Under the pieces are notes generated by a model that was not told where the DNA came from, made no database searches, and was given only the letters and a program-made list of their open reading frames with translations. The position numbers and the translations under genes were made by a program. From contig JAADCZ010000060.1 in the NCBI GenBank assembly GCA_013154175.1, positions 7,530 through 71,529 of the forward strand: 64,000 nucleotides of DNA. The letters run 5' to 3'. The DNA comes from Thermodesulfobacteriota bacterium (lineage in GTDB: Bacteria > Desulfobacterota > Dissulfuribacteria > Dissulfuribacterales > QOAL01). Positions 17,841 to 37,060 of the stretch are shown here, piece after piece (within the stretch, counting starts at the first letter, position 1; every line of letters starts with the position of its first letter).

Positions 17841-17853
17841 GTTGGGGAGGTTT

Positions 17854-18837
17854 ATGACCCAAAAAACAGCCAAGAAAAAAAGAAAGCCAGGTCGGCCCAG
17901 GGGCAGAAAGAAGAAGGCAACAAAGGCGAAAAAAGAAATAAACAGCGTTCCCGCAGTGAGCCCTAGCAAGGATCTGCTTCCCCTCGAAGCGGATAACCTG
18001 CAGCGATACCTGGCGGAGATCAACAAGTACCCGCTTCTTAGCAAGGAGGAGGAAGAGGCCATAACCAAGGCCTACTATGAGACCAAGGACCCAGCCCTTG
18101 CCCATAAGATAGTTACATCCAATTTGAGGCTCGTGGTGAAGATTGCCTTGGATTTCCAGAAGTTTTGGATGCAGAATTTCCTGGATCTCATCCAGGAAGG
18201 CAATGTTGGGCTCATGCATGCCGTGAAGAAGTTCAACCCCTACAAAGGGGTCAAGTTTTCCTATTATGCATCCTTCTGGATAAAGGCATACATCCTCAAG
18301 TTCATAATGGACAACTGGCGGCTGGTTAAGATTGGTACCACCCAGGCCCAAAGAAAGCTCTTTTATAACTTGAACAAAGAAAAGGAGAGCCTCAGGGCCT
18401 TGGGTTTCGAGCCAGTGCCGAAACTAATTTCCAAGAGGCTCAATGTGTCTGAACAAGACGTGATAGACATGGAGCAACGGATGGGGTCTTGGGAGGTTTC
18501 CCTAGATGCCCCTGTAAAGCAGGATTCCGAAGACAGCTACATGGAGTTTCTGCCAAGCAAGGAGCCTGAGGTGGAGCAGGTATTGGCAAAGCAGGAGATG
18601 CAGGAAAAACTCCATGAAAAGCTTCAGGAGTTTGCCTCTACCCTCAAGGATAGGGAAAAGATTATATTTGAAGAAAGGCTTTTGGCTGAAGAGCCCAAAA
18701 CATTGCAGGAAATCGGAGAACGGTTTGGGGTTTCAAGGGAAAGGGTGCGTCAGATAGAGTCACGCCTCAAAAAGAAGCTAGGCAAGTTCCTTGAGTCTCA
18801 ACTTCCGGACATCGTTCCTGGTGCCTCTCCTGTCTAA
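17854..18837 (+). CDS. rpoH: RNA polymerase sigma-32 (heat-shock) factor RpoH-like, with basic N-terminal extension
   Basis: Regions 2 to 4 plus an RpoH-box-like segment (TTQAQRKLFYNLNK). SD GGGGAGG lies just before ATG 17854. Confidence 0.85.
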   Translation: MTQKTAKKKRKPGRPRGRKKKATKAKKEINSVPAVSPSKDLLPLEADNLQRYLAEINKYPLLSKEEEEAITKAYYETKDPALAHKIVTSNLRLVVKIALDFQKFWMQNFLDLIQEGNVGLMHAVKKFNPYKGVKFSYYASFWIKAYILKFIMDNWRLVKIGTTQAQRKLFYNLNKEKESLRALGFEPVPKLISKRLNVSEQDVIDMEQRMGSWEVSLDAPVKQDSEDSYMEFLPSKEPEVEQVLAKQEMQEKLHEKLQEFASTLKDREKIIFEERLLAEEPKTLQEIGERFGVSRERVRQIESRLKKKLGKFLESQLPDIVPGASPV

Positions 18838-20694: not shown

Positions 20695-21465
20695 GTGCCT
20701 GGTCCAACCTTTTTGAAAGGGAGGCTAATAATTAAGCAGAGAAACGGCAGTGCCGCAGTAGAGGTCAGGTCGCTAAAAAAGGCCTATCGTCTTGAAGGAA
20801 AGCCCTTAGAGGTGCTCAAGGACGTATCTTGCACCTTTTATGAAAATGAGTCTGTTTCCATTGTCGGGGCGTCTGGAGTGGGAAAGACCACCCTTTTACA
20901 CATTATCGGCACATTGGACAGGCCTACCAGCGGGACGATTCTCCACTTTTCACAGGATGTTTTTTCGTGGCCAGACAAGCGGCTTTCCTGTTTCAGAAAT
21001 GAGGAGATTGGGTTCGTTTTCCAGTTTCATCATCTTCTGCCTGAATTCAACTGTCTGGAAAATGTTATGATGCCATGTCTTCTTGCAGGCGAGGGGCAAA
21101 GACATGCAATAGACAGGGCGAGAGAGCTGCTTGACTATCTGGGACTCGGCGGCAAAGAGGAGCTAAACGTGAAGAAACTTTCTGGTGGAGAACAACAGCG
21201 AGTGGCCCTTGCCAGGGCGCTCGTCAGGAATCCACGTCTGATACTGGCAGATGAGCCAACGGGGAATCTCGATGAAAGGAGTGGCCAGAAGGTTGCGCGG
21301 CTCCTGTTCAAGATTAGGGAGGAGGTCAAGGCCACTTTGATAATTGTTACCCATAATCTCAACCTTGCCGGAATGACAGACAGGTGCATCGGACTGAAAT
21401 CAGGTAGGGCCTATGAGCTGGCAAAGGAAAGGTTGGCCGAATTTGTAATGGATGAGGCGGCTTAA
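20695..21465 (+). CDS. lolD: lipoprotein-releasing/ABC transporter ATP-binding protein (LolD-like)
   Basis: Walker A GASGVGKTTLL, LSGGEQQRVALARAL and ILADEPTGNLD. The start is uncertain: GTG 20695 has no SD, and a strong SD at 20717-20724 precedes only ATA/ATT codons. Confidence 0.75.
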   Translation: MPGPTFLKGRLIIKQRNGSAAVEVRSLKKAYRLEGKPLEVLKDVSCTFYENESVSIVGASGVGKTTLLHIIGTLDRPTSGTILHFSQDVFSWPDKRLSCFRNEEIGFVFQFHHLLPEFNCLENVMMPCLLAGEGQRHAIDRARELLDYLGLGGKEELNVKKLSGGEQQRVALARALVRNPRLILADEPTGNLDERSGQKVARLLFKIREEVKATLIIVTHNLNLAGMTDRCIGLKSGRAYELAKERLAEFVMDEAA

Positions 21466-24166
21466 CATGGTGTACAAGGGATTTAATACTTTTGGTTTGC
21501 TCCTTTTTTTTGTGGCACTCTGGGTTGGTTTCGTGGCCAATGCTCGTGGCTCCATCGATGCCTCCATCGATGATATTTCTGTACGTCCTTCCTCTATCGT
21601 GCTGTTTCAGCCTTCCTACATCGGGCCCAAGGGGGGAGAGGCGATTACCAGCGATGTTAAGGAGTTGCTGGTCTCGGAGCTTGAGTCCCAGGGGCACAGG
21701 GTGGTCGTGGCAAGTGATTCTCCAGAAACTCCTGCCCAGGCAAGGGCCATTGTGCAAGATGAGGGGGCGGACTATGGCATCTATGGAACTGTGTCCAGGC
21801 TTGGAGATGTGGTAAGCCTGGATTTTTTTGTGGTCAGCAAGGCAACTGAGGAAAAAAAGCCCTTTGTGGCCTTTGTTCAAGGGCCAGAGTCAAAGCTCAG
21901 GAATCTTGTAAAACTCCTTGCTCTTAAAATCAATCAGGATTTTTCAATCCCGTACAGGGTGGCAGAGGTTCAGGTTGAAGGCAACAAGAGGGTTGGCACC
22001 GATGCCATATTGCAAAACATCCATACGGAAAAGGGTTCGGTCTATGACCCTGCCACAATAGCCGAGGATATCAAATCCATATACAAGATGGGCTACTTTG
22101 ACGACGTTGAAGTGGACGTTCAGGACACCCCCGAAGGCAAGGTCGTCACCTACATGGTCAGGGAAAAGCCAGCCATCAGAAAGATAATATTCGAGGGCAA
22201 CAAGGAGATAGCAGACGACAAAATAAAGGATGTGCTGGATCTCAAGCCCTATACCGTTATCAAGGACAAGAGCCTGCAGGAGAACGCCGAGAAGATAAAG
22301 GCCCTCTATGCAGAAAAGGGTTATGCAGGCACCACTGTTACAGTATCCGTTAGGCCTGTTTCGAATCAGGCCGCTGACGTGATCTTTGAGATCAACGAAG
22401 GAGAGAAGGTCCATATAAAGTCCATCAAGATAGAAGGGGCCAAGGCATTTTCCCAGGATGACCTCAAAGACATAATGGAAGTCACTGAGAAAAAGCCGTG
22501 GTGGACCCCAAGCCTTCGCAACTTGATCGGCATGGTCAAGGGGAATGCCGGCGTCCTCAAATGGGACGCACTGGAGCGCGACCAGGGCAGGCTCACGGCC
22601 TTTTACCACAATCACGGTTACGTAGATGCCAAGGTTGGGCAGCCCAGGGTGGAGAGGAAAGGTGCCGATATCTACGTCACCATCCCTGTCCATGAAGGGG
22701 AGCGCTATGGTGTTGGCAAGGTAGACATAGAACAGGACTTCTTCCCAGACGAATACAAGCTGTTGAGCCATCTCGAGATAAAGAATATGGACTACTTCAG
22801 CCAGGAAGTCCTGCGAAAGGACATCATGACCCTCACCAATATGTACGCCGATGAGGGTTTCGCCCACTGCACAATAACCCCGAAGATTACCAAGGACCCA
22901 GAAAAGAAGGTGGTCAACATCACCTTTGTGGTCAACAAGGGACCAAAGGTCTATTTCAACAGGATCAATATCACAGGCAACACCCGGACAAGGGACAAGG
23001 TCATCAGGCGAGAGCTGAGGGTCATGGAGTTAAAGCCCTTTAGTGCAACTGGCCTAAAGAGGAGTAACGACAGGCTGAGACGCCTTGGCTACTTCGAGGA
23101 CGTGGACATCACCCCCAAGCCGGCCCAGGACGAGTCCCACATGGATCTGGATGTAAAGGTAAAGGAGAGGCCAACTGGAACCTTCAGTATCGGCGCAGGC
23201 TACAGCTCTGTGGACAAGCTGATACTCATGGGCGAGATAAGTCAGAGAAACTTCCTCGGCAAGGGCCAGACCTTGAGCTTCAAGGGAATAATAGGCGGCA
23301 GTACACAGCGGTTCTCACTGAGCTTCTTTGAGCCCTACTTCCAGGATACCAGGTTGTCCCTGGGAGTCGATTTATACAACTGGCAGTATGATTACTCTGA
23401 CTACACCAAGGATAGTGTTGGTGGATCCTTGAGGTTTGGCTACCCCCTGACGGATAATCTTAGCTTCTTCTTTGGTGGCAGAATCGATAACACCGATCTT
23501 TCAGACATAGATGACAACGCCTCATACATCATCAGGAGTTCTAGGGACATAAAATCGACCAGGTCATTGAGCGCAGGGTTGACCTATGATTCCAGAAACC
23601 GCTACTTCAACCCGACCAGGGGTTGGAGAAGCAACATATCAATGGAATGTGCAGGCGCATTCCTTGGCGGGGATGCATCCTTTGTCAAGTTCAGGGGGGA
23701 AGTGGGCTATTATCACCCAATCTGGCACTTCATAACGGGTCATGTGAGGATCGGTGCAGGCTACGTGGTTGATGGGCCTGGCGGAGACCTGCCTGTTTAT
23801 GAAAGATTCTTCCTTGGCGGTCTCGATTCGGTCAGGGGGTACAAATATGGAGATGTCAGCCCCAGGGACCCAGAGACAGACGAGAGAATTGGTGGCGAGT
23901 ACATGGGTTTTATGCAGAGCGAACTCATATTCCCGCTTCTCAAGGAGATGGGCCTCAACGGGGTCGTCTTCTTCGATATGGGAAATGTCTGGGGCAAGGA
24001 TACAGACGAAGGCTTTGACATAACCGATCTTCGAAAATCCGCAGGAGCCGGTGTAAGATGGCTTTCTCCCATGGGGCCCCTAAGGGTTGAATGGGGATAT
24101 AACTTTGACAGAAAGCCTGGAGACGACAAGAGCAACTGGGAGTTCCGGATGGGAGGAAACTTCTAG
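21452..24166 (+). CDS. bamA: outer membrane protein assembly factor BamA
   Basis: Signal peptide, five recognisable POTRA units (starting [54 protein letters not shown]) and an Omp85 barrel ending ...WEFRMGGNF. Alternative start ATG 21467. Confidence 0.9.
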
Positions 24167-25212
24167 TGGATACCAAAGACGGTGTAACCTTAAAGGCCCT
24201 AGCAGAATATCTGGGTGGTGAGTTCCAGGGGGACCCTTCCCTCGAGATTCGTGGCATTTCCAGCCTGGAAGATGCGGGCCCTGATGAGATAAGTTTCGCA
24301 GTAAGCCAGTCCCTGGCAGACAAGGTGGCAGATTCAAGGGCGTGTGCCTTCATCTTGCCAAAGGGTTGGAAGGCCCAGCCAGTGGAAAACGCCATCTTCG
24401 TCAAGGACCCTTACCTTGCCTATGCGCAAACGGCAAAGCTTTTCTGGGAAAAACCCTTTGATGCCAAGGGCATAGATGAAAGGGCAGTGGTTGGCCCGGA
24501 TTGTCAAATAGACAGCGAGGTCACCATAGAGGCAGGGGCCGTTTTGGGGGCTAATTGCAAAATCGCCAAGAAGGTCCATATCCATCCAGGTGTTGTACTT
24601 GGTGACAATGTGGAGATCGGGGAGGGAAGCGTACTCTTCCCCAATGTGGTCGTTTATGAAGGGTGTCGCATTGGACGCCGCGTTAGAATTCATGCAGGGG
24701 CCATCATAGGTGCAGATGGTTTTGGCTACGCCCCTGGGCCCGAGGGCATGGTAAAGATCCCCCAGACAGGGATAGTTGTAATTGAGGACGATGTGGAAAT
24801 AGGGGCCAATACCACAATCGACAGGGCTGCCATAGGCGAGACACGAATAGGGCAGGGGACCAAGATAGACAATCTCGTTATGATTGCCCACAATGTGAGC
24901 CTTGGCCCCCACTGTGTCATCGTCAGCCAGGTGGGCATCTCTGGCAGCACCAAGGTTGGGGCAGGCGTGATGATGGGTGGCCAGGTAGGCGTCGTTGGCC
25001 ATATCCAGATAGGGGACGGGGCCCGGATTGGTGCAAAGTCTGGGGTGCCCCATTCCATTGGACCCGGTGAGACGGTCTCTGGAATCCCGGCAATGCCCCA
25101 TCTTAAATGGCTGAGGATGGTCAATGTGCTCAAAAAGTTGCCAGATCTTTTCAAGGAATTGAAACAGCTCAAGAAAAGGATAGAAAGGCTAGAGGGAGAT
25201 GGGAAAGGGTAG
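24166..25212 (+). CDS. lpxD: UDP-3-O-acylglucosamine N-acyltransferase LpxD
   Basis: N-terminal LpxD domain followed by a long left-handed beta-helix of hexapeptide repeats. GTG start overlaps the bamA stop (TAGTG). Confidence 0.9.
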
Positions 25213-25645
25213 TACAAACGATATATTTGAGGTGCTGAATCTGCTGCCTCACAGGTATCCGTTTCTGCTTGTGGACAGGATTGTCGAGTTTGAGCCTGAT
25301 GAGTATATAAGAGGCTACAAGAATGTGACCATAAACGAGCCCTTTTTTCAGGGTCACTTTCCTGGAGAACCCATAATGCCTGGCGTACTGATACTAGAGG
25401 CCATGGCACAGCTTGGCATTTTGTTTGCGAAAAAGACAGCGCCAGAGGAGCTGGAAGACAAGCTCTTTGTGTTCGCAGGCATGGACGGCGTCAGGTTCAG
25501 ACGGCCTGTCAGGCCTGGGGACAGGCTCGACATGGAGCTTAGGCTTGTGAAGAAAAAGAGACTCGTGTGGAAAATGGAAGGAACTGCGTCAGTGGATGGA
25601 AAGACCGCTGTCGAGGCGATTCTCATGGCAGCAGTTTCCAGATAG
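25199..25645 (+). CDS. fabZ: 3-hydroxyacyl-ACP dehydratase FabZ
   Basis: [13 protein letters not shown]...[19 protein letters not shown] signature. Confidence 0.95.
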
Positions 25646-25703
25646 TAGGTTGATTCGAACAAGGTTCAGGGAACAAGGCCAGTTGGCCACTTAATAAAAA
25701 TTT

Positions 25704-26516
25704 ATGTCAGCACAGAACAGTACAAACAACATTCATCCTACAGCAGTGGTGGACCCTGCCTGTAGGCTAGGCAATAACGTGACTGTCGGCCCCTACACAG
25801 TTTTGGGGCCGCACGTCGAGGTGGGCGACAACTGCTGGTTGGGGCCCCATGTAGTCATAGACGGAAAGACCACAATAGGTGCAAATTGCCAGATTTTTCA
25901 GTTCTCATCCATAGGTGCAGCGCCCCAGGACATCACCTACAAGGGTGAGCTCACCTCGGTGGAGATTGGCGAATCTACAATCATCCGCGAAAGCGTCACC
26001 ATTCACAGGGGCACGCCCAAGGGTGGTGGGCTCACCAAGGTGGGCAAGCAGTGCATGATCATGGCATACTGTCACATTGCCCATGATTGCAAATTGGGTG
26101 ACGGGGTAATCATGGCGAATGTGGCAACCCTTGGTGGCCATGTGGAAATTGGTGACCATGCAGTAATCGGCGGGCTTTCTGCAATCCATCAATTTTGTCA
26201 CATTGGGAAATATGCCTTCCTAGGGGGCATGTCTGGTGCCAACAAGGACATTCCACCCTTTGTGAAGTACCAGGGGCAGAGGTCCAACCTTCATGGCATA
26301 AACGTGCTTGGGCTAAGAAGGGCAGGATTCTCCAAAGAGACCATAGAAATGCTGCGGGAGGCCTACAGGATAGTGTTCAAAAAGGCGGCCACAATCACCG
26401 AGGGGCTCGATCTTGCTGACGCCGCGTTTCCCGACAGCCCAGAGGTCAAGGAATTCACTGATTTTATAAGAAATTCAAAAAGAGGCGTGCCTGCCGGGGA
26501 ATGGAATCAGGATTAA
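25704..26516 (+). CDS. lpxA: acyl-ACP--UDP-N-acetylglucosamine O-acyltransferase LpxA
   Basis: Hexapeptide-repeat N-terminal domain and helical C-terminal domain (NLHGINVLGLRRAGFS). Confidence 0.9.
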   Translation: MSAQNSTNNIHPTAVVDPACRLGNNVTVGPYTVLGPHVEVGDNCWLGPHVVIDGKTTIGANCQIFQFSSIGAAPQDITYKGELTSVEIGESTIIRESVTIHRGTPKGGGLTKVGKQCMIMAYCHIAHDCKLGDGVIMANVATLGGHVEIGDHAVIGGLSAIHQFCHIGKYAFLGGMSGANKDIPPFVKYQGQRSNLHGINVLGLRRAGFSKETIEMLREAYRIVFKKAATITEGLDLADAAFPDSPEVKEFTDFIRNSKRGVPAGEWNQD

Positions 26517-27331
26517 CGGACAAAGGCTCTGTTGGAATAGTGGCAGGCGGTGGGCAGTTTCCTGTGCTGTGCGCCCAGGCAGCATCCCGCAAGGGCTATA
26601 GGGTCTATGGTCTGTGCCACAAGGGCGAGACTTCAAAGGAGCTGGAAAAATATTGTGTCAAGACCAAGTGGATTCATCTTGGTCAGTTGGGCAAGCTCAT
26701 ATCCTTTTTTAAAAAGAACGGGGTTACCAAGGTCTTTTTTGCTGGCACCATAAAAAAGACCAGGCTTTTTGTGGATGTAAGGCCCGATATGAGGGCCCTT
26801 GCCCTTTGGCGTAGCATGGATGGCCACTTGGACGATTCCATTTTGCGCCTCGTTGCCGCCGAGCTCGAAAAAGAGGGTCTCGAGGTTGTATCACCAACCC
26901 TATTTTTGGAAAATCTCCTTTTCCCCCAAGGCATCCTTACCAAGAAGCAACCCACGCAAGAGCAGATGGAAGACGTGCGCTTCGGGTTTGAGATCGCAAA
27001 GCGTATAGGCGACCTTGACATAGGCCAATGTATAGTTGTGAAAGATAAGGTAGTCTTGGCCGTGGAGGCCATCGAGGGAACCGATGAGACGATAAGGCGC
27101 GGTGGAAGGCTGGCAAAAGGGGGGGCCGTGGTGGTAAAAATCTGTAAGCCCAATCAGGACAGACGCTTCGATCTTCCTTCTGTTGGCCTGAAAACCATTG
27201 AGACCATGATAGAGGCAGGGGCGGACGTCCTGGCTGCAGAGGCAGGGGTATCACTCTTTTTTGATATGTCAGAAAGTCTTGCCTTGGCAGACAGGGCGGG
27301 AATCTGTGTTATGGGAATAAAACAGCCATGA
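26501..27331 (+). CDS. lpxI: UDP-2,3-diacylglucosamine diphosphatase LpxI (DUF1009) family
   Basis: 276 aa. GIVAGGGQFP N-terminus and the ...IEGTDETIRRGG... motif typical of LpxI. Located between lpxA and lpxB. Confidence 0.8.
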   Translation: MESGLTDKGSVGIVAGGGQFPVLCAQAASRKGYRVYGLCHKGETSKELEKYCVKTKWIHLGQLGKLISFFKKNGVTKVFFAGTIKKTRLFVDVRPDMRALALWRSMDGHLDDSILRLVAAELEKEGLEVVSPTLFLENLLFPQGILTKKQPTQEQMEDVRFGFEIAKRIGDLDIGQCIVVKDKVVLAVEAIEGTDETIRRGGRLAKGGAVVVKICKPNQDRRFDLPSVGLKTIETMIEAGADVLAAEAGVSLFFDMSESLALADRAGICVMGIKQP

Positions 27332-28287
27332 AAGTAGCAGTTATTGGAGCGGGATACCTAGGGCGGTTTCATGCCCTGAAATATGCTGCAATGGAAGATG
27401 TGGATCTCGTTGCAGTGGTGGATGTGGATAGGGAACGGGCAGAGGCTGTAGCCTTGGAGACTGCCTCCAGGGCATATTCAGATTACCGCGACGTGATACC
27501 ACAGATCGATGCCGCATCGGTGGTGGTCCCCACTACTGCCCACTATGAAGTGGCCAAGAATCTTCTCGAGGCCGGAGTTCATGTGATGGTGGAAAAGCCC
27601 ATAACAACCACCACAGAGGAGGCCCAGGAGCTTGTGGACCTGGCTGAGGCCAAGGGCCTTATCATGCAAGTTGGGCATCTTGAGCGGTATAATCCAGCCA
27701 TTGTCACCCTGATGGATAGGGTGACGCACCCGGTGTTCATCGAGGCCCACAGGCTTAGCGGTTTCAAGGGCAGGGCCACGGATGTGGACGTCGTCCTGGA
27801 TTTGATGATTCACGACATAGACATAATGCTCTCCATGGTGAAGAGCGAGATAAAGGAAATTCGTGCCTCCGGGGTGCCTGTCTTGACTCCACGCATCGAT
27901 ATTGCAAACGTGCGGGTGATTTTTGAAAATGGTTGTACGGCAAATCTTACTGCCAGCCGCATTTCCCTTACTGATTTGAGGCGCATCAGGGTATTTCAGC
28001 CTGGCTGCTATCTGTCTGCAGACTGTACTGAGAAAAACAACCTCATTGTCACTGCTGACAGGAATGCCCCTGACCCGGTCAGTTCCATCCGGCCAGAGTA
28101 TATTCGCCATGAGGATGCGGACATCCTGGATCTGGAGCTCAGGGACTTCGTAAAGAACGTCCGGGAGAAAAGGCGCCCAATGGTTGACGGCAGGGCAGGT
28201 ATGGCAGCCCTGGATCTTGCCTTGCGGATTAACAAGGCCATCGATGAGGCCTTATCCCAGGCCAATATCAAAGATGTCTGGAAATAG
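27328..28287 (+). CDS. Gfo/Idh/MocA-family NAD(P)-dependent oxidoreductase embedded in the lipid A cluster
   Basis: N-terminal Rossmann MKVAVIGAGYLGRFH and the EKP motif (VMVEKPI). 4-nt overlap with lpxI and 14-nt overlap with lpxB. Confidence 0.75.
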   Translation: MKVAVIGAGYLGRFHALKYAAMEDVDLVAVVDVDRERAEAVALETASRAYSDYRDVIPQIDAASVVVPTTAHYEVAKNLLEAGVHVMVEKPITTTTEEAQELVDLAEAKGLIMQVGHLERYNPAIVTLMDRVTHPVFIEAHRLSGFKGRATDVDVVLDLMIHDIDIMLSMVKSEIKEIRASGVPVLTPRIDIANVRVIFENGCTANLTASRISLTDLRRIRVFQPGCYLSADCTEKNNLIVTADRNAPDPVSSIRPEYIRHEDADILDLELRDFVKNVREKRRPMVDGRAGMAALDLALRINKAIDEALSQANIKDVWK

Positions 28288-29431
28288 GATCTTTGTCATT
28301 GCCGGCGAGGCATCTGGAGACCTGCATGCCTCACACCTTGTCAGGGAGATAAGGAAGAGACGTCCAGACATTGAGATAAGCTGCGTAGGCGGTCAACACC
28401 TTGCAGAGGCCGGATGCGAAGTGGTTGTCTCGAGTGATACCATCTCTGTGGTTGGTATCTCCGAGGTCTTTTCCCATGCCATTCCCATTGTTTCCGCCTT
28501 CCTTAAGACCAGGCAATGGCTGCGAAGCAAACGGCCAGACTTGCTCATCCTAGTGGACTTCCCGGAGTTCAATCTGCTCATGGCCAGATATGCAAAGTCC
28601 CTTGGGATTCCGGTATTTTACTATATCAGCCCCCAGGTGTGGGCATGGCGTCAGGGCCGTGTAAAAAAGATTGCCAAGGTCGTGGACAAGATGGCCGTCA
28701 TTCTTCCCTTTGAGGAAGAGTTTTACAAACGCTTTGGCATAGATGCCAGATTTGTGGGCCACCCCCTCCTGGATTCCCTGGATCCTGACTCCATTGATGG
28801 CAAGGGGCTTAGAAGGGCACTGGGCCTTTCAGACAGCGACACCATCATCTGCCTCCTGCCTGGGAGCAGGAAAGGGGAGATAGAAAGACATCTTCCCATA
28901 ATGCTGGATGCAGCCTCGAAAATTGGTGCTAAAAGCAAAGGAGTCCGCTTTCTGGTTGCCCTTGGAGAGTCCACAGCCAGCCATAATCGTGACTTTGTGG
29001 CAAGCCTTCTTTCCCAGGCAAGATGTGACGTTAAACTCGTTGAAGGCAAGACCTATGAAGCCATAAAGGCGTCTCAGTTGTGCATTGCAGCATCTGGCAC
29101 CGTAACCCTTGAGGTGGGCATTATTGGCACACCCCTCGTTGTCATCTATAAGGTTTCATCACTTTCCTATTTTCTGGGGAAAAGACTCATAAGGGTGCCC
29201 TGGGTGAGCCTCATAAACCTCATTGCCCAAAAAGAGGTTGTTCCAGAACTCCTCCAGGATGATGCCAACCCAGAAACGATAGCTTCAAAGGCCCTGGAGC
29301 TCTTGGAATCTGATTCTGCCAGAAGCAAGATGCAGAAGGAGCTTGCTGCCCTCAGAAAGAAACTTGGGTCCCAGGGTGCATCGAGCCAGGCAGCAGAGCT
29401 TGCCCTGGAGTTACTTGACAGTCGTGTATGA
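28274..29431 (+). CDS. lpxB: lipid-A-disaccharide synthase LpxB
   Basis: Starts MSGNRIFVIAGEASGDLHASHLV (typical LpxB N-terminus). The track start at 28184 is an upstream in-frame extension inside the oxidoreductase gene. Confidence 0.9.
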   Translation: MSGNRIFVIAGEASGDLHASHLVREIRKRRPDIEISCVGGQHLAEAGCEVVVSSDTISVVGISEVFSHAIPIVSAFLKTRQWLRSKRPDLLILVDFPEFNLLMARYAKSLGIPVFYYISPQVWAWRQGRVKKIAKVVDKMAVILPFEEEFYKRFGIDARFVGHPLLDSLDPDSIDGKGLRRALGLSDSDTIICLLPGSRKGEIERHLPIMLDAASKIGAKSKGVRFLVALGESTASHNRDFVASLLSQARCDVKLVEGKTYEAIKASQLCIAASGTVTLEVGIIGTPLVVIYKVSSLSYFLGKRLIRVPWVSLINLIAQKEVVPELLQDDANPETIASKALELLESDSARSKMQKELAALRKKLGSQGASSQAAELALELLDSRV

Positions 29432-31183: not shown

Positions 31184-31288
31184 TTTTACTCCTTCCTCAC
31201 TGTGCAAATAGATCCTCTTCTGTCTCTATTTTAACATCCACCAATAGCCGGCGAAATAGATTAAATTCCTTAGTTGCAAGTTAAAATT

Positions 31289-31307
31289 GATAATTAAAGT
31301 TATAATG
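31289..31307 (+). promoter_or_regulatory. Fur-box-like AT-rich element overlapping a TATAAT hexamer upstream of the TonB-dependent receptor
   Basis: GATAATTAAAGTTATAATG matches about 13/19 positions of the classical GATAATGATAATCATTATC box. TATAAT at 31301-31306. Confidence 0.3.
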
Positions 31308-31386
31308 CTTGTCTTTTTTAGGTTAATATAAGTAAAATGTAAAATAATTTCAAAGAAACTGGCAAAACAGCGAGGTTTCTTCCATC

Positions 31387-33453
31387 ATGCAGATTCCATC
31401 CACTTTATGTTCAAAGGGCCGTCTGGCCGTCTTTGTTGGAGTTTTTGCCCTGATTTCACTCTTCGTAGCCTTTACCCCTACGTTGACACTGGCTTGTTCC
31501 GGCAAGGAGGACAAGCTTGAGGGCTTGTTGTCAATGGACCTCGAGGAGCTGATGAATGTGGAGGTGACGTCTGCATTCAAAAAGCCGCAAAATTTTCGGA
31601 ATATTCCTGCTGCTGTTTACGTTATCACTTCTGAAGACATTCGTCGTTCTGGTGCAGAGACGATTCCCGAGGCACTCAGAATGGTTCCTGGAGTGAATGT
31701 GGCAAAGCTGGACAATGGGAATTGGGCTGTATCCATCAGGGGGTTCAATGGGCTTTTTTCAGACAAGCTCCTTGTCTTGATGGATGGAAGAACCCTCTAT
31801 GACCCCCTGTTTTCAGGGGTGTTTTGGGACGTTCAGGATACTGTACTAGAGGATATCGAACGAATAGAGGTGATAAGGGGCCCTGGAGCGAGTATCTGGG
31901 GAACAAACGCTGTAAATGGCGTAATTAACATAATCACAAAGAATGCATCAGATACAGTGGGGGGGATGGTGAGTGTTTCTGGAGGTAATCAAAATCGAGG
32001 AACCCTGTCGGCCAGATATGGTGTTCGCATGGGCGATGTTGGTGCCACAAGATTTTATGTAAAGACCTTTAAGCGTCATCAACAGGTGCAAAGTGATGGA
32101 TCAACGGCCTGGGATGACTGGTTCATGGACAGGGTAGGGTTTCGTTCTGATCTCAAGTTGCCCGAGGCAAACACAGTCTCCCTGAAGGGGGAGATGTACA
32201 CTGGAAGGGGTACGAACAAGCTTGTCGGGCTAGATCGCACATATTCAAAGCATGTAATCCAGAAGAATAACGTGCCTGTCTCAGGCGGTTATTTAGTCAG
32301 CGACTTCGGTCATAGGTTCAGGAAGGGCCTGGATCTGTTCTTCAGGTTTTACTACGACCATACAGAGCGCAAGTTTTCAAAGCTTACATCCCAGACCAGG
32401 GACACAATCGATTTTGAGTTCAAGAATCACTGGTGTGTAGGCGAGCTCGTGGATTTTGTATGGGGTGGAACGTACCGGCATACCAGCGATGACATTCCTA
32501 TGAGTCATGGCCACACTGGCTATGGTTCATTCATACCCAGAAGGCGTAAGGATGATCTTTTCAGCCTTTTTCTCCAAAATGAATTCAAATTCTGGCTTGA
32601 AAGGCTCCGGTTCATAACTGGAGTGAGGTTGGACCATTACAACTACTCGGGTCTAGAGGCACAGCCAACCTTCAGGTTTCTCTATTCCCTAGGCTCTCAT
32701 CAGGATTTGTGGATGGCAGTATCCAGGGCGGTCAGGAGCCCTAGCAGATACAACCGGGATGCAATTTGGATCCTTGGGCCTCCTGCCAACGACATTCCTG
32801 CCCCAGGCGCCATTATGGTTTTCAGGGGAAGTGACGATTATAAGAGCGAAAAGGTTTGGTCGTATGAAATGGGATACAGATGGAGATCGGGCAAGAATCT
32901 CACGGTCGATGTAACGGGTTTTGCAAATTTTTACACGGATCTCTTTTCAGGTACAGTGGGAACTCCTTTTGAACATCACGGATATGAGATAACCCCCATA
33001 GACCCAGGAAATCATGGAGAGGGTAACACCTATGGTGTGGAACTGACCTCCAATGTAAAACCCTTCAAGTGGTGGAGGGTTGAACTTTCCTACTCCTATT
33101 TGGATTGCAACTTCTGGGTGAAATCCAAATATCGGAACAATACCGAGTTGACTGTGCATTACATGGCTTCGCCTCACCACAAGGTCTCGGTGAGATCCTA
33201 TATGGACCTGACATCCAGCATGGAACTGGATGTGTGGCTTCGTTACACCTCGAGTCTTTCACGCTTGGATATCCCGGCCTATACAGGTCTGGACATCAGG
33301 TTCGGATATCACCCGTCCAAGCAATTGGAATTTTCAATCGATGGCAAGGACCTCCTGGATCCTTATCATCCTGAATTTCGCGACGAGTTCTTGCACGTTG
33401 TGGACACAGAGGTTCCCCGTTCCGTAAATGCCAAGATTACGTGGCATTTCTAG
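31387..33453 (+). CDS. TonB-dependent outer-membrane receptor
   Basis: Signal peptide and plug domain (IPAAVYVITSEDIRRSGAETIPEALRMVPGVNV...IRGFNG...VLMDGRTLY...IERIEVIRGPGASIWGTNAVNGVINIITK). Beta-barrel ends in ...ITWHF. Confidence 0.9.
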   Translation: MQIPSTLCSKGRLAVFVGVFALISLFVAFTPTLTLACSGKEDKLEGLLSMDLEELMNVEVTSAFKKPQNFRNIPAAVYVITSEDIRRSGAETIPEALRMVPGVNVAKLDNGNWAVSIRGFNGLFSDKLLVLMDGRTLYDPLFSGVFWDVQDTVLEDIERIEVIRGPGASIWGTNAVNGVINIITKNASDTVGGMVSVSGGNQNRGTLSARYGVRMGDVGATRFYVKTFKRHQQVQSDGSTAWDDWFMDRVGFRSDLKLPEANTVSLKGEMYTGRGTNKLVGLDRTYSKHVIQKNNVPVSGGYLVSDFGHRFRKGLDLFFRFYYDHTERKFSKLTSQTRDTIDFEFKNHWCVGELVDFVWGGTYRHTSDDIPMSHGHTGYGSFIPRRRKDDLFSLFLQNEFKFWLERLRFITGVRLDHYNYSGLEAQPTFRFLYSLGSHQDLWMAVSRAVRSPSRYNRDAIWILGPPANDIPAPGAIMVFRGSDDYKSEKVWSYEMGYRWRSGKNLTVDVTGFANFYTDLFSGTVGTPFEHHGYEITPIDPGNHGEGNTYGVELTSNVKPFKWWRVELSYSYLDCNFWVKSKYRNNTELTVHYMASPHHKVSVRSYMDLTSSMELDVWLRYTSSLSRLDIPAYTGLDIRFGYHPSKQLEFSIDGKDLLDPYHPEFRDEFLHVVDTEVPRSVNAKITWHF

Positions 33454-33464
33454 AGGTTTGAGCC

Positions 33465-34043
33465 ATGTCAGGACCACCCTACAAACATAAAATTCTGCTC
33501 AGCCGCCTGGTGCATGGGAGTTTTTTGGTGTCCTTGATGGCGTTGATCTTCCTGTTTCCTTTGTCAGTCACCAAGGGAAAGGAATCCTTTGTCAGCACAG
33601 AATGTGAACTGAAGACGGCCTTTATTTACCAATTCACCAAATATGTCAGCTGGCCAAAGTCCAAAAAGGACAAGGATCGCCTCATAATTGGGGTAATAGC
33701 CCGTGAACATATGTTCAATGCAATAAAGAAGCTCGATGGGAAACTAAGTCAGGGCATGAAAATTTCGGTAATATCCATGAAGGATTATTCACAATTGGAT
33801 GGTATCGATATACTATACATTGAAAGTTGGTTTCCCATTAAAGAGGAGTTGGTAAAAAAGGCTGTAAAGCATCATGTCCTGACCATATCAGACCGTAATG
33901 ATGCCGCTGAAAAGGGCATTATAATAGCTCTATATATGGCTGATTCCAGGCTTAGGTTTGATGTTAACCTGAAAGTGGCAGATGCTAGCAGTCTTAGGCT
34001 CAGTAGCAGATTGCTCAGGTTGGCACACAAACTTATTATATGA
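33465..34043 (+). CDS. YfiR-family (DUF4154) periplasmic protein
   Basis: Signal/TM segment followed by [19 protein letters not shown], which I recognise as characteristic of DUF4154/YfiR. 4-nt overlap with the downstream kinase gene. Confidence 0.7.
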
Positions 34044-36835
34044 ACATTTTTACCTCGATTGAGCATAAAATTGCCTTTTTCATGGGGCTAGTTGCGGTAT
34101 CTGTGCTCTTTGCATGTGCTCTTTTGTTTCTTGGCTATTACTTTTGGGACAGCCAGGTTCAGCATCGTCTTCAAACCTCTGTGCTCACCAGGGTCATTGG
34201 GTCAAACTGTGCTGCAGCCATCAGCTTCAAAGATGACGAGGCTGCCAGGGAAACTCTCTCCCCCCTAATGTCCATGACGGACATAAGTCAGGCGTGTCTC
34301 TTCTTTAAGGACGGCACCCGTTTCGTGTGTCTGTACCGTCCGAAATTTATAAACAGTTTGAATGACTTGAGACTTGAATCTTCCCATAGAGACAAGGGAA
34401 CCTTCAGCCTTTCCTCACTTTTTACAAACTATCACGACTGCCTAGAAGAGATTACCTGGAAGGGGGAAAAGGTCGGATATATCTGGGTAAGAAAGGACCT
34501 TTCCCATTTTTACGAGGCATTTAAGTCCACGGCCATTTTAGTTGGATTCGTCACGATGGTCATTGCACTCATTTGTCTTCTCATTGCCGGATACCTGGGA
34601 AATAGACTTGTTCGGCCAATTAACAAACTCATAGCCTCGGTGCAAGAGATAGCCAATGCAGGGGACTATTCCCACCGGGTGGAAAAGACCTCAGAGGATG
34701 AGCTTGGACTGCTTATTGAACAGTTCAATCTCATGCTGGATAAGATTCAAAACAGGGATACCCTGTTGAAAAAGAGCCAGCAGGATCTCGAGCAGAAGGT
34801 GGCCGACAGGACTAAAGAGCTTTCCCGCATCAATAGGGAACTCGAAAGTCTCGTCATCAAATATAAGGAAGCCAAGGACAAGGCAGAAGAGGCCAACAAG
34901 GCCAAGAGTCGTTTTCTTGCAAATATGAGTCATGAGATCCGGACCCCTATGAATGGTGTCCTGGGCATGGCGGAAATCCTTTTGAATACAGATCTCACCC
35001 CAAGGCAGCGCCAGCTAGTCGAGTCCATCTTGAAGTCGGGTGAAATCCTCTTAAGCATCATCAATGACATTTTGGATTTTTCCCGCATGGAAGCCGGGAA
35101 GATCATGTTAAAGGAGGAACCCTTCTGCATTCTCGATCTTGCCAAGGAAATTATAGAGTTGTTCCAGATTCAGGCCCAGAAGAAAGGGGTGAATATATAT
35201 CTTGCGTGGGATAAGGAGATTCCCCGGACAATCCTTGGTGATGCTGACAAACTGAAGGAGATTTTGATTAATTTGGTTGGCAATGCAGTCAAGTTCACAG
35301 AAAACGAGAATATCATCATTCGCATAAAGATGGGTGGCTCTAGCAGCTGCGGCAGGGGCAAAGTGCTACTCTTTTTGGAGGTGGAAGACAGGGGGATTGG
35401 AATCTCCAAGGATAGACAATCTGCCATATTCAACGCCTTTTCCCAGGCGGATCAGTCCTCCTCGAAATCCTACGAAGGAACAGGCCTTGGCCTTGCCATA
35501 GTAAAGGGCATCATTGAGAGAATGGGTGGCTCCATCGAGGTCAAGAGCGAACTAGGGTATGGCTCCCGCTTTATCTGCCGTATACCCTTTGACCTGCCAG
35601 AGGACGTCCCTGCTATCCACGAGCCTGAACCAAGGGCAAGTCAGAGGGCTTTGGTCCTTGCCTTTGAACCATTCCTGAGGGAACAGATTGAGTCGGTTCT
35701 GGAAGAACTTAACTTCGACTATACCTTTATGGAAGAAGTGAATGATCTTTGGAAATCCCTGTCAGAGGATCCCACTCCTCAATGGATAATAGTTGATGTG
35801 GATGGTCTTGAGGAAAAGGAGCTAAAGTCCCTTGAGCGATTAACTGATAAAGGCTCCTTTGTTTGTCTCATTGGTCAGAACGAACCCCAGGGCATAGATG
35901 GAAGAAGATGTACCTTTGTAAAAAAGGCCGATGCTTACGTCAAACTTGGCGAGGTTCTGGCAAAGACCAGTGCCGAAGAAGAAAGGGAAGCGGTACAAGC
36001 AAAGGATGTCGCAAAGCCCAGTGAGCCCAGCGACAAGTTCAGGGGCATTCGTGTACTAGTGGTCGAGGATAATCCCATCAACCGCCAGCTATGTTTGGAG
36101 ATGTTTTCTTCCCTTGGGTGCGATACCGCCATCGCTGCAGACGGTAATGAGGCCCTGGATATCCTTGAAAAACAACGCTTTGACATCGTTTTCATGGATT
36201 GTCAGATGCCAGTTCTCGATGGCTACAAGACAACCGAGATTTACAGGAGCAAGGAAAAGGAAGGTCATTTGCCAATAGTAGCCCTTACTGCCTATGCCAT
36301 GGAAGAGGATAGACAAAAGTGTTTGGCTGCGGGAATGGACGACTATCTGGCCAAGCCCTTCAAACTTAGTCAGCTAAAAGAGATGTTGATGAAATGGGTT
36401 TGTCGAGATGGTGATGGAAAGGAGGTTCCCTCATTTCAGGAACATCAGCAACCTGTCGACCCGCCAGCCACAGATTCAATTGTGGATCTCACCGTGGTTC
36501 AAGAGCTCATATCTTTGGAGAAAGCTTCTGGCAGAAGGGTCTTTTCAAAGACACTCGAGACCTTTTTTGAGAAGAGTCCCAAGTATATCAAGGCAATGGA
36601 GCAGGCACTGAAAAACCGCGACCACAAAAGCCTCGCATACAATGCCCATACCTTCAAGGGCACAACTGGTTTTCTGGGTGCCCTGAACCTTAGCAGACTC
36701 TGTTATCAAATGGAGTCCAAGGCCAAGGAAAAGGCCCTTGATGGACTTGATAAGCTGCTGGCACAAATAAAGGAAGAATATGAAAAGGTTGAGGGCTTTT
36801 TGTCTGACCTCCTTGAGAAACAGTTCCAGGTATGA
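34040..36835 (+). CDS. hybrid sensor histidine kinase / response regulator (periplasmic sensor-HAMP-HisKA-HATPase-degenerate REC-REC-Hpt)
   Basis: Two TM segments flank an about 140-aa periplasmic domain. HAMP and coiled coil follow, then H-box [15 protein letters not shown] boxes ([23 protein letters not shown]), REC ([11 protein letters not shown]...[11 protein letters not shown]...KPF) and Hpt ([14 protein letters not shown]). Confidence 0.9.
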
Positions 36836-37060
36836 GGTGTCTGCCTAGGAGGTGTATGGGAAAATTTCCATTATAAGTGAACAATAGTCATTGTCGAAAA
36901 TGTGGGGCCCACTTCAAAGGTCGCTCTTCGAGCCACTCGCTAATCGCCCTTTTAATCCTGCCAAAATAAATTTATCTTAAAACCAAAGCAGTCTCAGGTA
37001 ATTCTTTCATCGGTTTTACTTATTGATTTCCGGAAGTTAAATGGCATCTTAAAATATTCT

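What the first reader, a model, noticed from the sequence alone, without database searches (positions are those of the whole stretch)
31387..36835. TonB-dependent receptor / YfiR-like / hybrid histidine kinase: a YfiBNR-style periplasmic relay wired to a phosphorelay
Three co-directional genes lie 12 nt apart and then overlap by 4 nt. They encode an outer-membrane TonB-dependent receptor, a DUF4154/YfiR-type periplasmic protein, and a kinase whose about 140-aa periplasmic domain (between TM1 and the TM2-HAMP) looks like the sensor domain I recall as CHASE8, found in YfiN-type diguanylate cyclases. In the characterised YfiBNR system, periplasmic YfiR represses YfiN and is sequestered by the OM lipoprotein YfiB. 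Here the output is a HisKA-HATPase-(degenerate REC)-REC-Hpt phosphorelay instead of a GGDEF domain, and the OM partner is a 22-strand receptor instead of an OmpA-like lipoprotein. No cognate DNA-binding response regulator is encoded nearby. The module is bracketed by AT-rich intergenic regions and by eye is more AT-rich than its neighbours, which hints at accessory status. To my knowledge the ligand and output of this arrangement are uncharacterised.
Basis: partly seen in the sequence, partly recalled or inferred. Interest (0 to 1): 0.6.

Follow-up and report, generated by a model that had tools for sequence, protein, structure and literature searches.

The report
TonB receptor–YfiR-like–sensor kinase module

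Summary
Window 31387-36835 carries three co-directional genes. They encode a TonB-dependent receptor (688 aa), a DUF4154/YfiR-fold periplasmic protein (192 aa) and a CHASE8-HAMP-HisKA-HATPase-pseudoREC-REC-Hpt hybrid kinase (931 aa). The genes are 11 nt apart and then overlap by 4 nt. No other receiver, kinase, GGDEF or OmpA-like ORF was found in the 64 kb.

The trio is not peculiar to this genome. Among 80 metagenomic DUF4154 loci, the receptor lies directly upstream in 60 of 68 testable cases. A CHASE8-HAMP protein lies directly downstream in 59 of 68. The full trio occurs in 46 of 58. Distant copies pass the NCBIfam cut-offs for the "TOL_0244 family TonB-dependent receptor" and the "TOL_0243 family YfiR-like periplasmic protein". 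The window copies are a divergent branch just below both cut-offs.

Across trios the YfiR-like protein diverges in step with CHASE8-HAMP (r = 0.79), as closely as those two domains track each other. The kinase core is swapped (r = 0.29).

The "accessory island" idea fails: the trio sits in conserved synteny among core genes, and its slightly low GC is shared by relatives.

It is not a YfiBNR member, because it has no YfiB, no GGDEF and no YfiR cysteines. It most likely works as a YfiR-type periplasmic relay whose outer-membrane partner is the receptor. The protein contacts, ligand and output are untested.

The parts
31208..31386 (.). Upstream intergenic spacer, probable promoter region of the trio
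   Evidence: GC 0.296, the lowest of 14 intergenic gaps. Promoter-like matches are no more frequent than in shuffles. One 13/19 Fur-box-like match at 31289 is at chance level for the window. No such matches occur upstream of 40 family receptors.
31387..33453 (+). TonB-dependent receptor, 688 aa, a divergent member of the TOL_0244 family
   Evidence: Pfam Plug and barrel. NCBIfam NF053590 scores 590.6 bits (cut-off 645), and the next family scores 108.6. It is 100% identical to an NCBI protein from a 'Thermodesulfobacteria bacterium' MAG. The nearest solved structure by sequence is CirA, E 2e-23.
31516..31584 (+). Conserved N-terminal cap plus TonB-box-like strand (aa 44-66, LEGLLSMDLEELMNVEVTSAFKK)
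   Evidence: In 44 family receptors the pattern L..LSLEELMN.EVTS.SKK follows the signal peptide. Its role as TonB box and as a possible docking site is inferred.
31597..31923 (+). Plug domain (aa 71-179)
   Evidence: Pfam PF07715, E 1.5e-23. It is the most conserved part of the family alignment.
32215..33342 (+). Beta-barrel region matched by Pfam (aa 277-652); the protein ends in ...TWHF
   Evidence: PF00593, E 1.3e-24. C-terminal W.F is conserved. The 22-strand count is inferred from the family and was not modelled.
33465..34043 (+). YfiR-like periplasmic protein, 192 aa (N-terminal hydrophobic helix about 10-30, DUF4154 domain 48-187)
   Evidence: PF13689 115.5 bits. NF053591 104.6 bits (cut-off 125) and NF053586 'sequestration protein YfiR' 46.8 (cut-off 85). 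AlphaFold2 pLDDT 89.7. Foldseek top 15 are YfiR, TM 0.69-0.77. It has a single Cys (C47).
34040..36835 (+). Hybrid sensor histidine kinase, 931 aa
   Evidence: Pfam domains. Catalytic residues H298, N-box 411, G1 450, G2 480, D720, T750, K772 and H870 are all present. The best NCBIfam hits, BarA and TorS, are far below their cut-offs.
34172..34489 (+). CHASE8 periplasmic sensor domain (aa 45-150), between two hydrophobic segments
   Evidence: PF17152 40.6 bits, cut-off 27. 24% identity to E. coli DgcN across CHASE8, TM2 and HAMP, E 6e-7. Hydropathy.
34595..34750 (+). HAMP domain (aa 186-237)
   Evidence: PF00672, E 4.7e-13.
34901..35593 (+). Kinase core: HisKA (aa 288-353) and HATPase_c (aa 400-518)
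   Evidence: motifs.
35606..36043 (+). Pseudo-receiver domain (aa 523-668)
   Evidence: No Pfam hit at E <= 10. hhalign against REC gives 5-7% probability. The AlphaFold2 model is beta-alpha repeats. Foldseek hits are REC domains. D586 and K629 are invariant in 23 orthologues, but the acidic pair and the Thr/Ser are missing. Relatives carry a true REC or Receiver_CRE1 here.
36053..36388 (+). Receiver domain (aa 672-783), phospho-acceptor D720
   Evidence: PF00072, E 2e-30.
36554..36793 (+). Hpt domain (aa 839-918), H870
   Evidence: PF01627, E 6.4e-15.
36836..37060 (.). Downstream spacer before the DUF72 gene
   Evidence: GC 0.387. No terminator-like site was found there.

Best explanation
The three genes form one co-expressed sensory module that spans the cell envelope. 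[quoted passage not shown]

By homology with YfiR-YfiN, the YfiR-like protein binds the CHASE8 domain and holds the kinase in one signalling state.

The receptor takes the place of YfiB. When it is loaded with its unknown ligand and its N-terminal segment is released into the periplasm, it captures the YfiR-like protein and frees the kinase.

The kinase then autophosphorylates on H298 and passes the phosphate to D720 and H870. From there it goes to a response regulator encoded elsewhere. In related loci that regulator is usually a single-domain or c-di-GMP-linked one.

Shown here: the domain identities, the YfiR fold, intact catalytic residues, the conserved gene trio, and the joint evolution of the YfiR-like protein with CHASE8-HAMP.

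Inferred: every protein-protein contact, the direction of regulation, the ligand and the output.
For: - Domains and fold.
- E. coli yfiR-dgcN is the same DUF4154-then-CHASE8 pair with overlapping genes.
- Trio conservation: four syntenic relatives. Five of five receptor homologues at about 40% identity, from Geobacter, Verrucomicrobia, Thermodesulfovibrionales and others, have DUF4154 next door, and four of five are followed directly by a CHASE8 kinase. In metagenomes the counts are 60/68, 59/68 and 46/58.
- Distance matrices over 29 trios: YfiR-like vs CHASE8 r = 0.79 and vs HAMP 0.78, equal to CHASE8 vs HAMP at 0.80. YfiR-like vs kinase core is 0.29 and vs receptor barrel 0.54. Mantel p = 0.0005, and the pattern is stable without the window's clade.
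- The most conserved part of the YfiR-like family (LT.SD...G...F..N...LSS.LL.LA) aligns with the YfiR strand-helix region that carries the YfiB/YfiN-binding residues and the hydrophobic pocket (PMC4655355, PMC4887326).
- The receptor family has a conserved N-terminal cap before the TonB-box-like strand.
- It shows no hallmarks of a nutrient-uptake locus: an ABC ATPase is present in only 3 of 34 loci of at least 9 kb, and there is no Fur-box enrichment.
- The phosphorelay residues are all intact.
Against: - No interaction was predicted or measured.
- Correlated divergence is also expected for genes simply inherited as one cassette.
- The receptor lacks the N-terminal signalling domain of known TonB-dependent transducers.
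- The YfiR cysteine pairs and several YfiB-contacting residues are replaced, so the YfiR precedent may not transfer.
- YfiR-fold proteins resemble one lobe of solute-binding proteins, which also fits a ligand-binding role.
- The only functional datum for the family is that T. oleivorans TOL_0244 rose sevenfold on n-C28 alkane (PMC6304351). That says nothing about signalling.
Confidence: 0.42

Rival explanations
1. Import and sense. The receptor is a true transporter that brings a small molecule into the periplasm. The YfiR-like protein binds that molecule, as TorT does for TorS or LuxP for LuxQ, and in its liganded form switches the CHASE8 kinase. No receptor-to-YfiR-like contact is needed.
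For: - TonB-box-like strand, plug and barrel are all conserved, as in working transporters.
- The fold neighbours after YfiR are small substrate-binding proteins and a Trp-bound ABC-type binding domain.
- YfiR itself binds vitamin B6 and L-Trp in its partner pocket (PMC4887326).
- Established knowledge: receptor genes next to two-component systems that sense the imported ligand are known, for example PfeA with PfeS/R and Bacteroides SusC-like proteins with hybrid two-component systems.
Against: - The YfiR fold is a single lobe without a hinge cleft, and its measured ligand affinities are about 10 mM (PMC4887326).
- One receptor subfamily stays locked to one YfiR-like subfamily across phyla. 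The YfiR-like protein tracks the receptor barrel (r = 0.54) at least as closely as CHASE8 does (0.52 in all 29 trios; 0.47 vs 0.34 without the window's clade). This is more than a generic importer would need.
Confidence: 0.28
2. Co-regulation only. The YfiR-like protein and the kinase form an envelope-stress or redox sensor of the YfiR/YfiN kind. The receptor is merely a co-transcribed cargo or target gene with no part in sensing.
For: - The YfiR-like/CHASE8-HAMP unit is much more tightly coupled than the receptor is to either.
- A few loci have DUF4154 plus CHASE8 with no receptor, e.g. L013. Others have receptor plus DUF4154 with no adjacent CHASE8, e.g. L025, L058, L070.
Against: - The receptor is directly upstream in 88% of testable loci, in the same order and usually within a few bases.
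- The redox-sensing cysteines of YfiR are absent.
- NCBIfam curators define the receptor and the YfiR-like protein as a named pair.
Confidence: 0.15
3. Recently acquired accessory island, as the first reader hinted from the AT-richness.
For: The trio is 2-8 GC points below the window's mean gene GC (0.502), and the upstream spacer is very AT-rich.
Against: - Same position and same neighbours in four relatives whose YfiR-like proteins are only 51-61% identical to the window's.
- The same GC dip is present in three of those genomes, whose loci have overall GC of 0.43-0.48.
- GC3 is within 1 SD for the receptor and the kinase.
- The flanks are core genes: the bamA-lpx cluster, coaBC, uvrC, mutL, miaA and dxs.
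- No mobility genes were seen.
Confidence: 0.03

Closest known systems
YfiBNR (TpbB / HmsCDE / AwsXRO) of P. aeruginosa, E. coli and Y. pestis
   Same: - A periplasmic DUF4154/YfiR-fold protein is encoded immediately before, and overlapping, an inner-membrane protein with a CHASE8 periplasmic domain.
- Both have three-part outer membrane / periplasm / inner membrane logic.
   Different: - The outer-membrane partner is a TonB-dependent receptor encoded upstream, not an OmpA-like lipoprotein encoded downstream.
- The output is a His-Asp-His phosphorelay, not GGDEF.
- Both YfiR cysteine pairs are missing.
- Only about 20% identity to YfiR, and below the NCBIfam YfiR cut-off.
NCBIfam pair NF053590 'TOL_0244 family TonB-dependent receptor' and NF053591 'TOL_0243 family YfiR-like periplasmic protein'
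   Same: - These are by far the best-scoring models for both window proteins.
- Distant trios with the same gene order pass both cut-offs.
   Different: - The window proteins score below both cut-offs (590.6 vs 645; 104.6 vs 125), so they form a divergent Desulfobacterales-like branch.
- The models carry names only. The only experimental datum I found is alkane-induced abundance of TOL_0244 (PMC6304351).
TonB-dependent transducers (FecA-FecR-FecI cell-surface signalling)
   Same: [quoted passage not shown]
   Different: - No N-terminal signalling domain; only about 25 residues precede the TonB-box-like strand.
- No anti-sigma or ECF sigma gene is adjacent.
- A soluble YfiR-fold protein and a histidine kinase take their place.
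Binding-protein-dependent hybrid kinases (TorT-TorS, LuxP-LuxQ) and BarA/GacS-type phosphorelays
   Same: - HAMP-HisKA-HATPase-REC-Hpt architecture with an accessory periplasmic protein.
- TorS and BarA models are the top NCBIfam hits for the kinase.
   Different: - The scores are far below those cut-offs.
- The sensor domain is CHASE8.
- The accessory protein is a single-lobe YfiR fold and not a two-lobe binding protein.
- An extra pseudo-receiver sits between the kinase core and REC.

Membership tests
YfiBNR system | Periplasmic YfiR (DUF4154 fold) | tested here: met
   PF13689 115.5 bits. The AlphaFold2 model matches YfiR structures, TM 0.69-0.77.
YfiBNR system | Equivalog-level similarity to YfiR (NCBIfam NF053586, cut-off 85 bits) | tested here: not met
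   46.8 bits. PDB YfiR E about 1e-3, 19-20% identity.
YfiBNR system | Two conserved cysteine pairs of YfiR (C71-C110, C145-C152; PMC4655355) | tested here: not met
   Only one Cys (C47). The C145 and C152 positions align to Ala.
YfiBNR system | Inner-membrane partner with a CHASE8 periplasmic domain | tested here: met
   PF17152 40.6 bits, above 27. Aligns to DgcN, E 6e-7.
YfiBNR system | GGDEF diguanylate cyclase output | tested here: not met
   No GGDEF in the kinase or in any window ORF of at least 70 aa.
YfiBNR system | OmpA-like outer-membrane lipoprotein YfiB | tested here: not met
   No OmpA-like ORF in the window, using a Pal probe at E <= 1. Among the 90 related loci scanned, only one had an OmpA-like hit, about 4 kb away on the opposite strand.
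YfiBNR system | YfiR binds the sensor domain and is sequestered by the outer-membrane partner | not testable with these tools
TOL_0244 / TOL_0243 pair (NCBIfam) | Receptor scores at least 645 bits on NF053590 | tested here: not met
   590.6 bits, with the next family at 108.6. Distant trios score 703-728.
TOL_0244 / TOL_0243 pair (NCBIfam) | YfiR-like protein scores at least 125 bits on NF053591 | tested here: not met
   104.6 bits. Distant trios score 141-156.
TOL_0244 / TOL_0243 pair (NCBIfam) | Receptor gene immediately followed by the YfiR-like gene | tested here: met
   11-nt spacer. The same adjacency holds in 60/68 related loci.
TonB-dependent receptor | Plug plus barrel, TonB-box-like N-terminal strand, C-terminal aromatic residue | tested here: met
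   The 22-strand barrel itself was not modelled.
TonB-dependent transducer (FecA type) | N-terminal signalling (STN) domain and adjacent anti-sigma/ECF sigma genes | tested here: not met
   No such Pfam hit and only a short N-terminus. The neighbours are a nitroreductase and the YfiR-like gene. The only sigma gene scanned (17842-18837) has regions 1.2, 2 and 4 and lies 13 kb away.
Hybrid histidine kinase phosphorelay | H-box His, N/G1/G2 boxes, receiver Asp/Thr/Lys, Hpt His | tested here: met
   H298, N-box at 411, G1 at 450, G2 at 480, D720, T750, K772, H870; Pfam.
Receiver domain (for aa 523-668) | REC fold with acidic pair, phospho-Asp, Thr/Ser and Lys | tested here: inconclusive
   The fold is met. 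D586 and K629 are conserved. The acidic pair and Thr/Ser are absent and the Pfam REC model is silent. I therefore call it a pseudo-receiver.

The most novel reading that the evidence does not exclude
A dedicated subfamily of TonB-dependent receptors acts as ligand-gated outer-membrane sensors. They signal by capturing and releasing a soluble YfiR-fold protein. That protein in turn gates CHASE8 kinases or, in other lineages, cyclases. This would be a route of TonB-dependent trans-envelope signalling distinct from the FecA/anti-sigma route. It would be present in many phyla, and YfiBNR would be one derived offshoot.
Probability: 0.35. Interest if true: 0.8.

Novelty: new variant of a known kind. 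Interest (0 to 1): 0.52.

Why it matters
YfiBNR is the textbook case of a periplasmic repressor shuttling between outer- and inner-membrane partners, and it is known mainly from a few Gammaproteobacteria.

The data here show that the YfiR-fold/CHASE8 pair is far more often joined to a TonB-dependent receptor and to a histidine kinase. This holds across Desulfobacterota, Geobacter/Geomonas, Nitrospirota, Verrucomicrobia and others. The DUF4154 family as a whole has 13,412 50%-identity representatives matching the window protein.

If the receptor really is the sensor, this is an unstudied way for bacteria to read the outside world through a TonB-gated protein without an anti-sigma factor. It would also give testable functions to thousands of receptors annotated only as "iron complex outermembrane receptor".

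For annotation, the result is practical. The trio should be read as one signalling unit and not as an iron-uptake gene plus an orphan kinase.

Tried and rejected
That rules out paired or fused input, so no complex model could be made.
- A Fur-box scan gave one 13/19 match upstream of the receptor. Fifteen such matches exist in the window and none in 40 family promoters, so I dropped iron regulation.
- Promoter and terminator scans were at shuffle level.
- Pfam and hhalign failed to recognise the middle domain as REC. Only the structure model did.
- My recollection that P. aeruginosa PA3268-PA3271 is such a trio was wrong. The titles and abstracts returned concern PA3270 as part of a toxin-antitoxin system and PA3271 in a CrbS/R paper.
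- A regex test for whether the N-terminal receptor motif is specific to DUF4154-linked receptors was uninformative: the pattern and the adjacency logic were poor, and too few unlinked receptors were sampled.
- P0249 looked like a DUF4154-kinase fusion, but only the last 28 DUF4154 residues are present and a real fusion would invert the membrane topology. I treat it as a gene-call or assembly artefact that merely confirms the adjacency.
- The genome-collection scan returned only 5 loci because its patterns were narrow. Its 80 loci are the best matches to the query, so the percentages describe this subfamily and not all DUF4154 proteins.
- Six literature searches found nothing linking a TonB-dependent receptor to a YfiR-like protein.

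Full report
**What is in the window**

Three + strand ORFs occupy 31387-33453, 33465-34043 and 34040-36835. The first pair is separated by 11 nt. An AGAGG lies about 10 nt before the second ATG. The second pair shares ATGA.

Pfam assigns:
- the 688-aa product to Plug plus the TonB-dependent barrel;
- the 192-aa product to DUF4154 "YfiR/HmsC-like" (115.5 bits);
- the 931-aa product to CHASE8 (40.6 bits, cut-off 27), HAMP, HisKA, HATPase_c, REC and Hpt.

Hydropathy gives one N-terminal hydrophobic segment in each of the first two proteins. In the kinase it gives two, within about 6-37 and 159-192, flanking a stretch of about 125 aa.

All phosphorelay residues are present: H298, the N, G1 and G2 boxes, D720, T750, K772 and H870.

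NCBI annotates the kinase from Met15 (917 aa). Homologues share a S-I-x-x-K-[IL] motif before the first membrane helix, and the window has it only in the longer ORF. I therefore keep the 931-aa reading and the 4-nt overlap.

**The middle domain of the kinase**

Residues 523-668 give no Pfam hit even at E = 10 and only 5-7% hhalign probability against REC profiles. An AlphaFold2 model built with 23 orthologues (pLDDT 78.6) is a beta-alpha repeat fold. Its PDB neighbours are nearly all receiver domains: RpfC REC, CheY, PhoB, MtrA and Spo0F, TM 0.62-0.76.

D586 at the end of strand 3 and K629 after strand 5 are invariant in the orthologues. The acidic pair after strand 1 and the Thr/Ser after strand 4 are missing. 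More distant relatives have a true REC or a "Receiver_CRE1" match at this position. "Degenerate REC" is therefore right.

**The YfiR-like protein**

Sequence similarity to solved YfiR is weak (E about 1e-3). A model built from 83 family sequences (pLDDT 89.7) has P. aeruginosa YfiR as its top 15 PDB matches, with TM 0.69-0.77, about 3 Å rmsd and 18-20% identity. Small substrate-binding proteins follow.

Both cysteine pairs that define YfiR redox control and stability (PMC4655355) are absent. The window protein has a single Cys.

The most conserved block of the family is LT.SD, G, F..N and LSS.LL.LA. It aligns with the YfiR region that holds the YfiB/YfiN-contact residues and the hydrophobic pocket that accepts YfiB Phe57, vitamin B6 or Trp (PMC4655355, PMC4887326).

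**Is the trio conserved?**

Yes, strongly.

- *Close relatives.* The window comes from a "Thermodesulfobacteria bacterium" MAG. Four related MAGs have YfiR-like proteins only 51-61% identical to the window's. They keep the block coaBC, nitroreductase, receptor, YfiR-like, kinase, DUF72, uvrC, mutL as far as their contigs extend.
All have DUF4154 immediately downstream. Four are followed directly by a CHASE8-HAMP kinase, and the fifth has one just upstream.
- *Metagenomes.* In 80 DUF4154 loci, the receptor is directly upstream in 60/68. A CHASE8-HAMP protein is directly downstream in 59/68. Both are present in 46/58.

Outputs vary: 18 classic kinases, 13 hybrid, 4 hybrid with Hpt, and one CHASE8-HAMP-GGDEF. 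Nearby regulators are mostly single receivers, REC-GGDEF or HD-GYP proteins, with one NarL type. Some kinase relatives are fused to GGDEF-EAL.

E. coli yfiR-dgcN-yfiB scans as DUF4154, CHASE8 + GGDEF and OmpA, with yfiR and dgcN overlapping. The window sensor aligns with DgcN at 24% identity.

**Who evolves with whom**

Pairwise distance matrices were computed over 29 complete trios.

| Pair | r |
|---|---|
| YfiR-like vs CHASE8 | 0.79 |
| YfiR-like vs HAMP | 0.78 |
| CHASE8 vs HAMP (same protein) | 0.80 |
| YfiR-like vs kinase core | 0.29 |
| CHASE8 vs kinase core | 0.35 |
| Receptor barrel vs YfiR-like | 0.54 |
| Receptor barrel vs CHASE8 | 0.52 |
| Receptor barrel vs kinase core | 0.24 |

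Mantel p is 0.0005 for the strong pairs. The pattern holds without the window's clade.

So the YfiR-like protein and CHASE8-HAMP are one evolutionary unit. The receptor is attached more loosely, and output modules are exchanged. This fits physical partnership. It is also what inheritance as a cassette would give, so it is supportive and not decisive.

**Is it already known?**

NCBIfam release 20 has NF053590 "TOL_0244 family TonB-dependent receptor" and NF053591 "TOL_0243 family YfiR-like periplasmic protein". These are the top hits for the window proteins but fall below cut-off (590.6/645 and 104.6/125). The distant trios pass both. The pairing has therefore been noticed by curators, and the window carries a divergent branch of it.

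In the literature library, DUF4154 appears in one paper, the YfiR structure. TOL_0244 appears in one proteomics paper, where it rose sevenfold on n-C28 alkane and was assumed to be an uptake protein. No paper links a TonB-dependent receptor with YfiR-type proteins.

**Accessory island?**

No.

- The flanks are core genes. Upstream are a sigma factor, a TPR protein, an ABC ATPase, bamA, lpxD, lpxA, lpxI and lpxB. Downstream are DUF72, uvrC, mutL, miaA, a CDP-alcohol phosphatidyltransferase, a polyprenyl synthetase (ispA-like) and dxs.
- GC of the trio is 0.482/0.418/0.472 against 0.502 +/- 0.022. GC3 is within 1 SD for the two large genes.
- The same dip exists in the syntenic trios of three relatives whose loci have GC of 0.43-0.48.

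**Mechanism**

I commit to a YfiR-type relay in which the receptor replaces YfiB (confidence about 0.4). The general statement that the three proteins form one envelope-spanning input device for a phosphorelay deserves about 0.75.

Points favouring sequestration over simple import:
- The YfiR precedent is protein-protein switching on the conserved face.
- The fold has a single lobe, and YfiR's measured ligand affinities are millimolar (PMC4887326).
- One receptor subfamily is locked to one YfiR-like subfamily across phyla.
- A conserved cap (LSLEELMN) sits just before the TonB-box-like strand. It could become exposed on ligand binding, much as the stretched YfiB N-terminus reaches YfiR.
- ABC importers are absent from the loci (3/34), and there are no Fur boxes.

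Import-and-sense remains a serious rival (about 0.28). Co-regulation without a sensing role for the receptor is less likely (about 0.15).

The output in this genome is unknown. No receiver, GGDEF, kinase or OmpA-like ORF other than the kinase itself lies in the 64 kb.

**Verdict**

This is a real, intact and well-conserved module. It is not a YfiBNR member. It is a receptor- and kinase-coupled variant of the YfiR/CHASE8 relay that databases already name but nobody has characterised. Interest is moderate: the instance is ordinary for its family, and the family itself is an open and testable problem.

Noticed in passing
window 34040-34084: NCBI annotates the kinase as 917 aa starting at Met15 (P0130). 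That would remove the 4-nt overlap with the YfiR-like gene. A conserved S-I-x-x-K-[IL] motif before the first membrane helix in homologues supports the longer 931-aa ORF.
   Followed up: partly
window 31516-31584; L003-L090 receptors: The receptor family has a conserved N-terminal cap (DLT.LSLEELMN) directly before the TonB-box-like strand (IEVTSVSKK). This region is usually not conserved in TonB-dependent receptors. It is a possible docking site for a periplasmic partner.
   Followed up: partly
window 31387-31500: The receptor signal peptide ends ...TLTLA-C, a loose lipobox-like pattern. The Cys is not conserved in the family alignment, so it is probably not a lipoprotein.
   Followed up: partly
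window 35606-36043: The pseudo-receiver keeps an invariant Asp (D586) and Lys (K629) at the canonical phospho-acceptor and Lys positions, even though the Pfam REC model cannot see it. Whether it can still be phosphorylated is open.
   Followed up: partly
window 20695-29431: An outer-membrane biogenesis cluster lies just upstream of the trio: an ABC ATPase, bamA, lpxD, a 491-nt unscanned gap at 25213-25703, lpxA, lpxI, an oxidoreductase and lpxB. The link to an envelope sensor may be coincidental.
   Followed up: no
L025 5899-12378: A DUF4154 gene is followed by three tandem receptor paralogues, and no CHASE8 protein was detected within the 6 kb held on either side. This suggests the receptor-DUF4154 link can exist without the kinase.
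   Followed up: no
L070/L073 and L058: Receptor-DUF4154 pairs occur with no CHASE8 gene in the 3-6 kb downstream. The ORFs there were not identified.
   Followed up: no
P0249 (965 aa, 92 kb contig): A CHASE8 hybrid kinase has the last 28 residues of a DUF4154 domain in frame at its N-terminus. This is probably a lost stop codon or a gene-call artefact, because a true fusion would invert the topology.
   Followed up: partly
P0257, P0258, P0349: These proteins carry two or three tandem DUF4154 domains (342-543 aa). Single-domain proteins dominate the 150 best matches listed for this family.
   Followed up: no
P0194, P0198, P0203: CHASE8-HAMP hybrid kinases of about 1,500-1,600 aa also carry GGDEF and EAL domains. 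They join the phosphorelay and c-di-GMP outputs in one protein.
   Followed up: no
window 31289-31307: GATAATTAAAGTTATAATG matches the E. coli Fur box at 13/19 positions in the very AT-rich upstream spacer. This is at chance level for the window and is not seen in the family.
   Followed up: yes
L005 (Rickettsiales MAG contig, 2.4 kb): A DUF4154 gene followed by a CHASE8-HAMP kinase occurs in a contig binned as Rickettsiales, an unexpected lineage. The contig is too short to see whether a receptor lies upstream.
   Followed up: no
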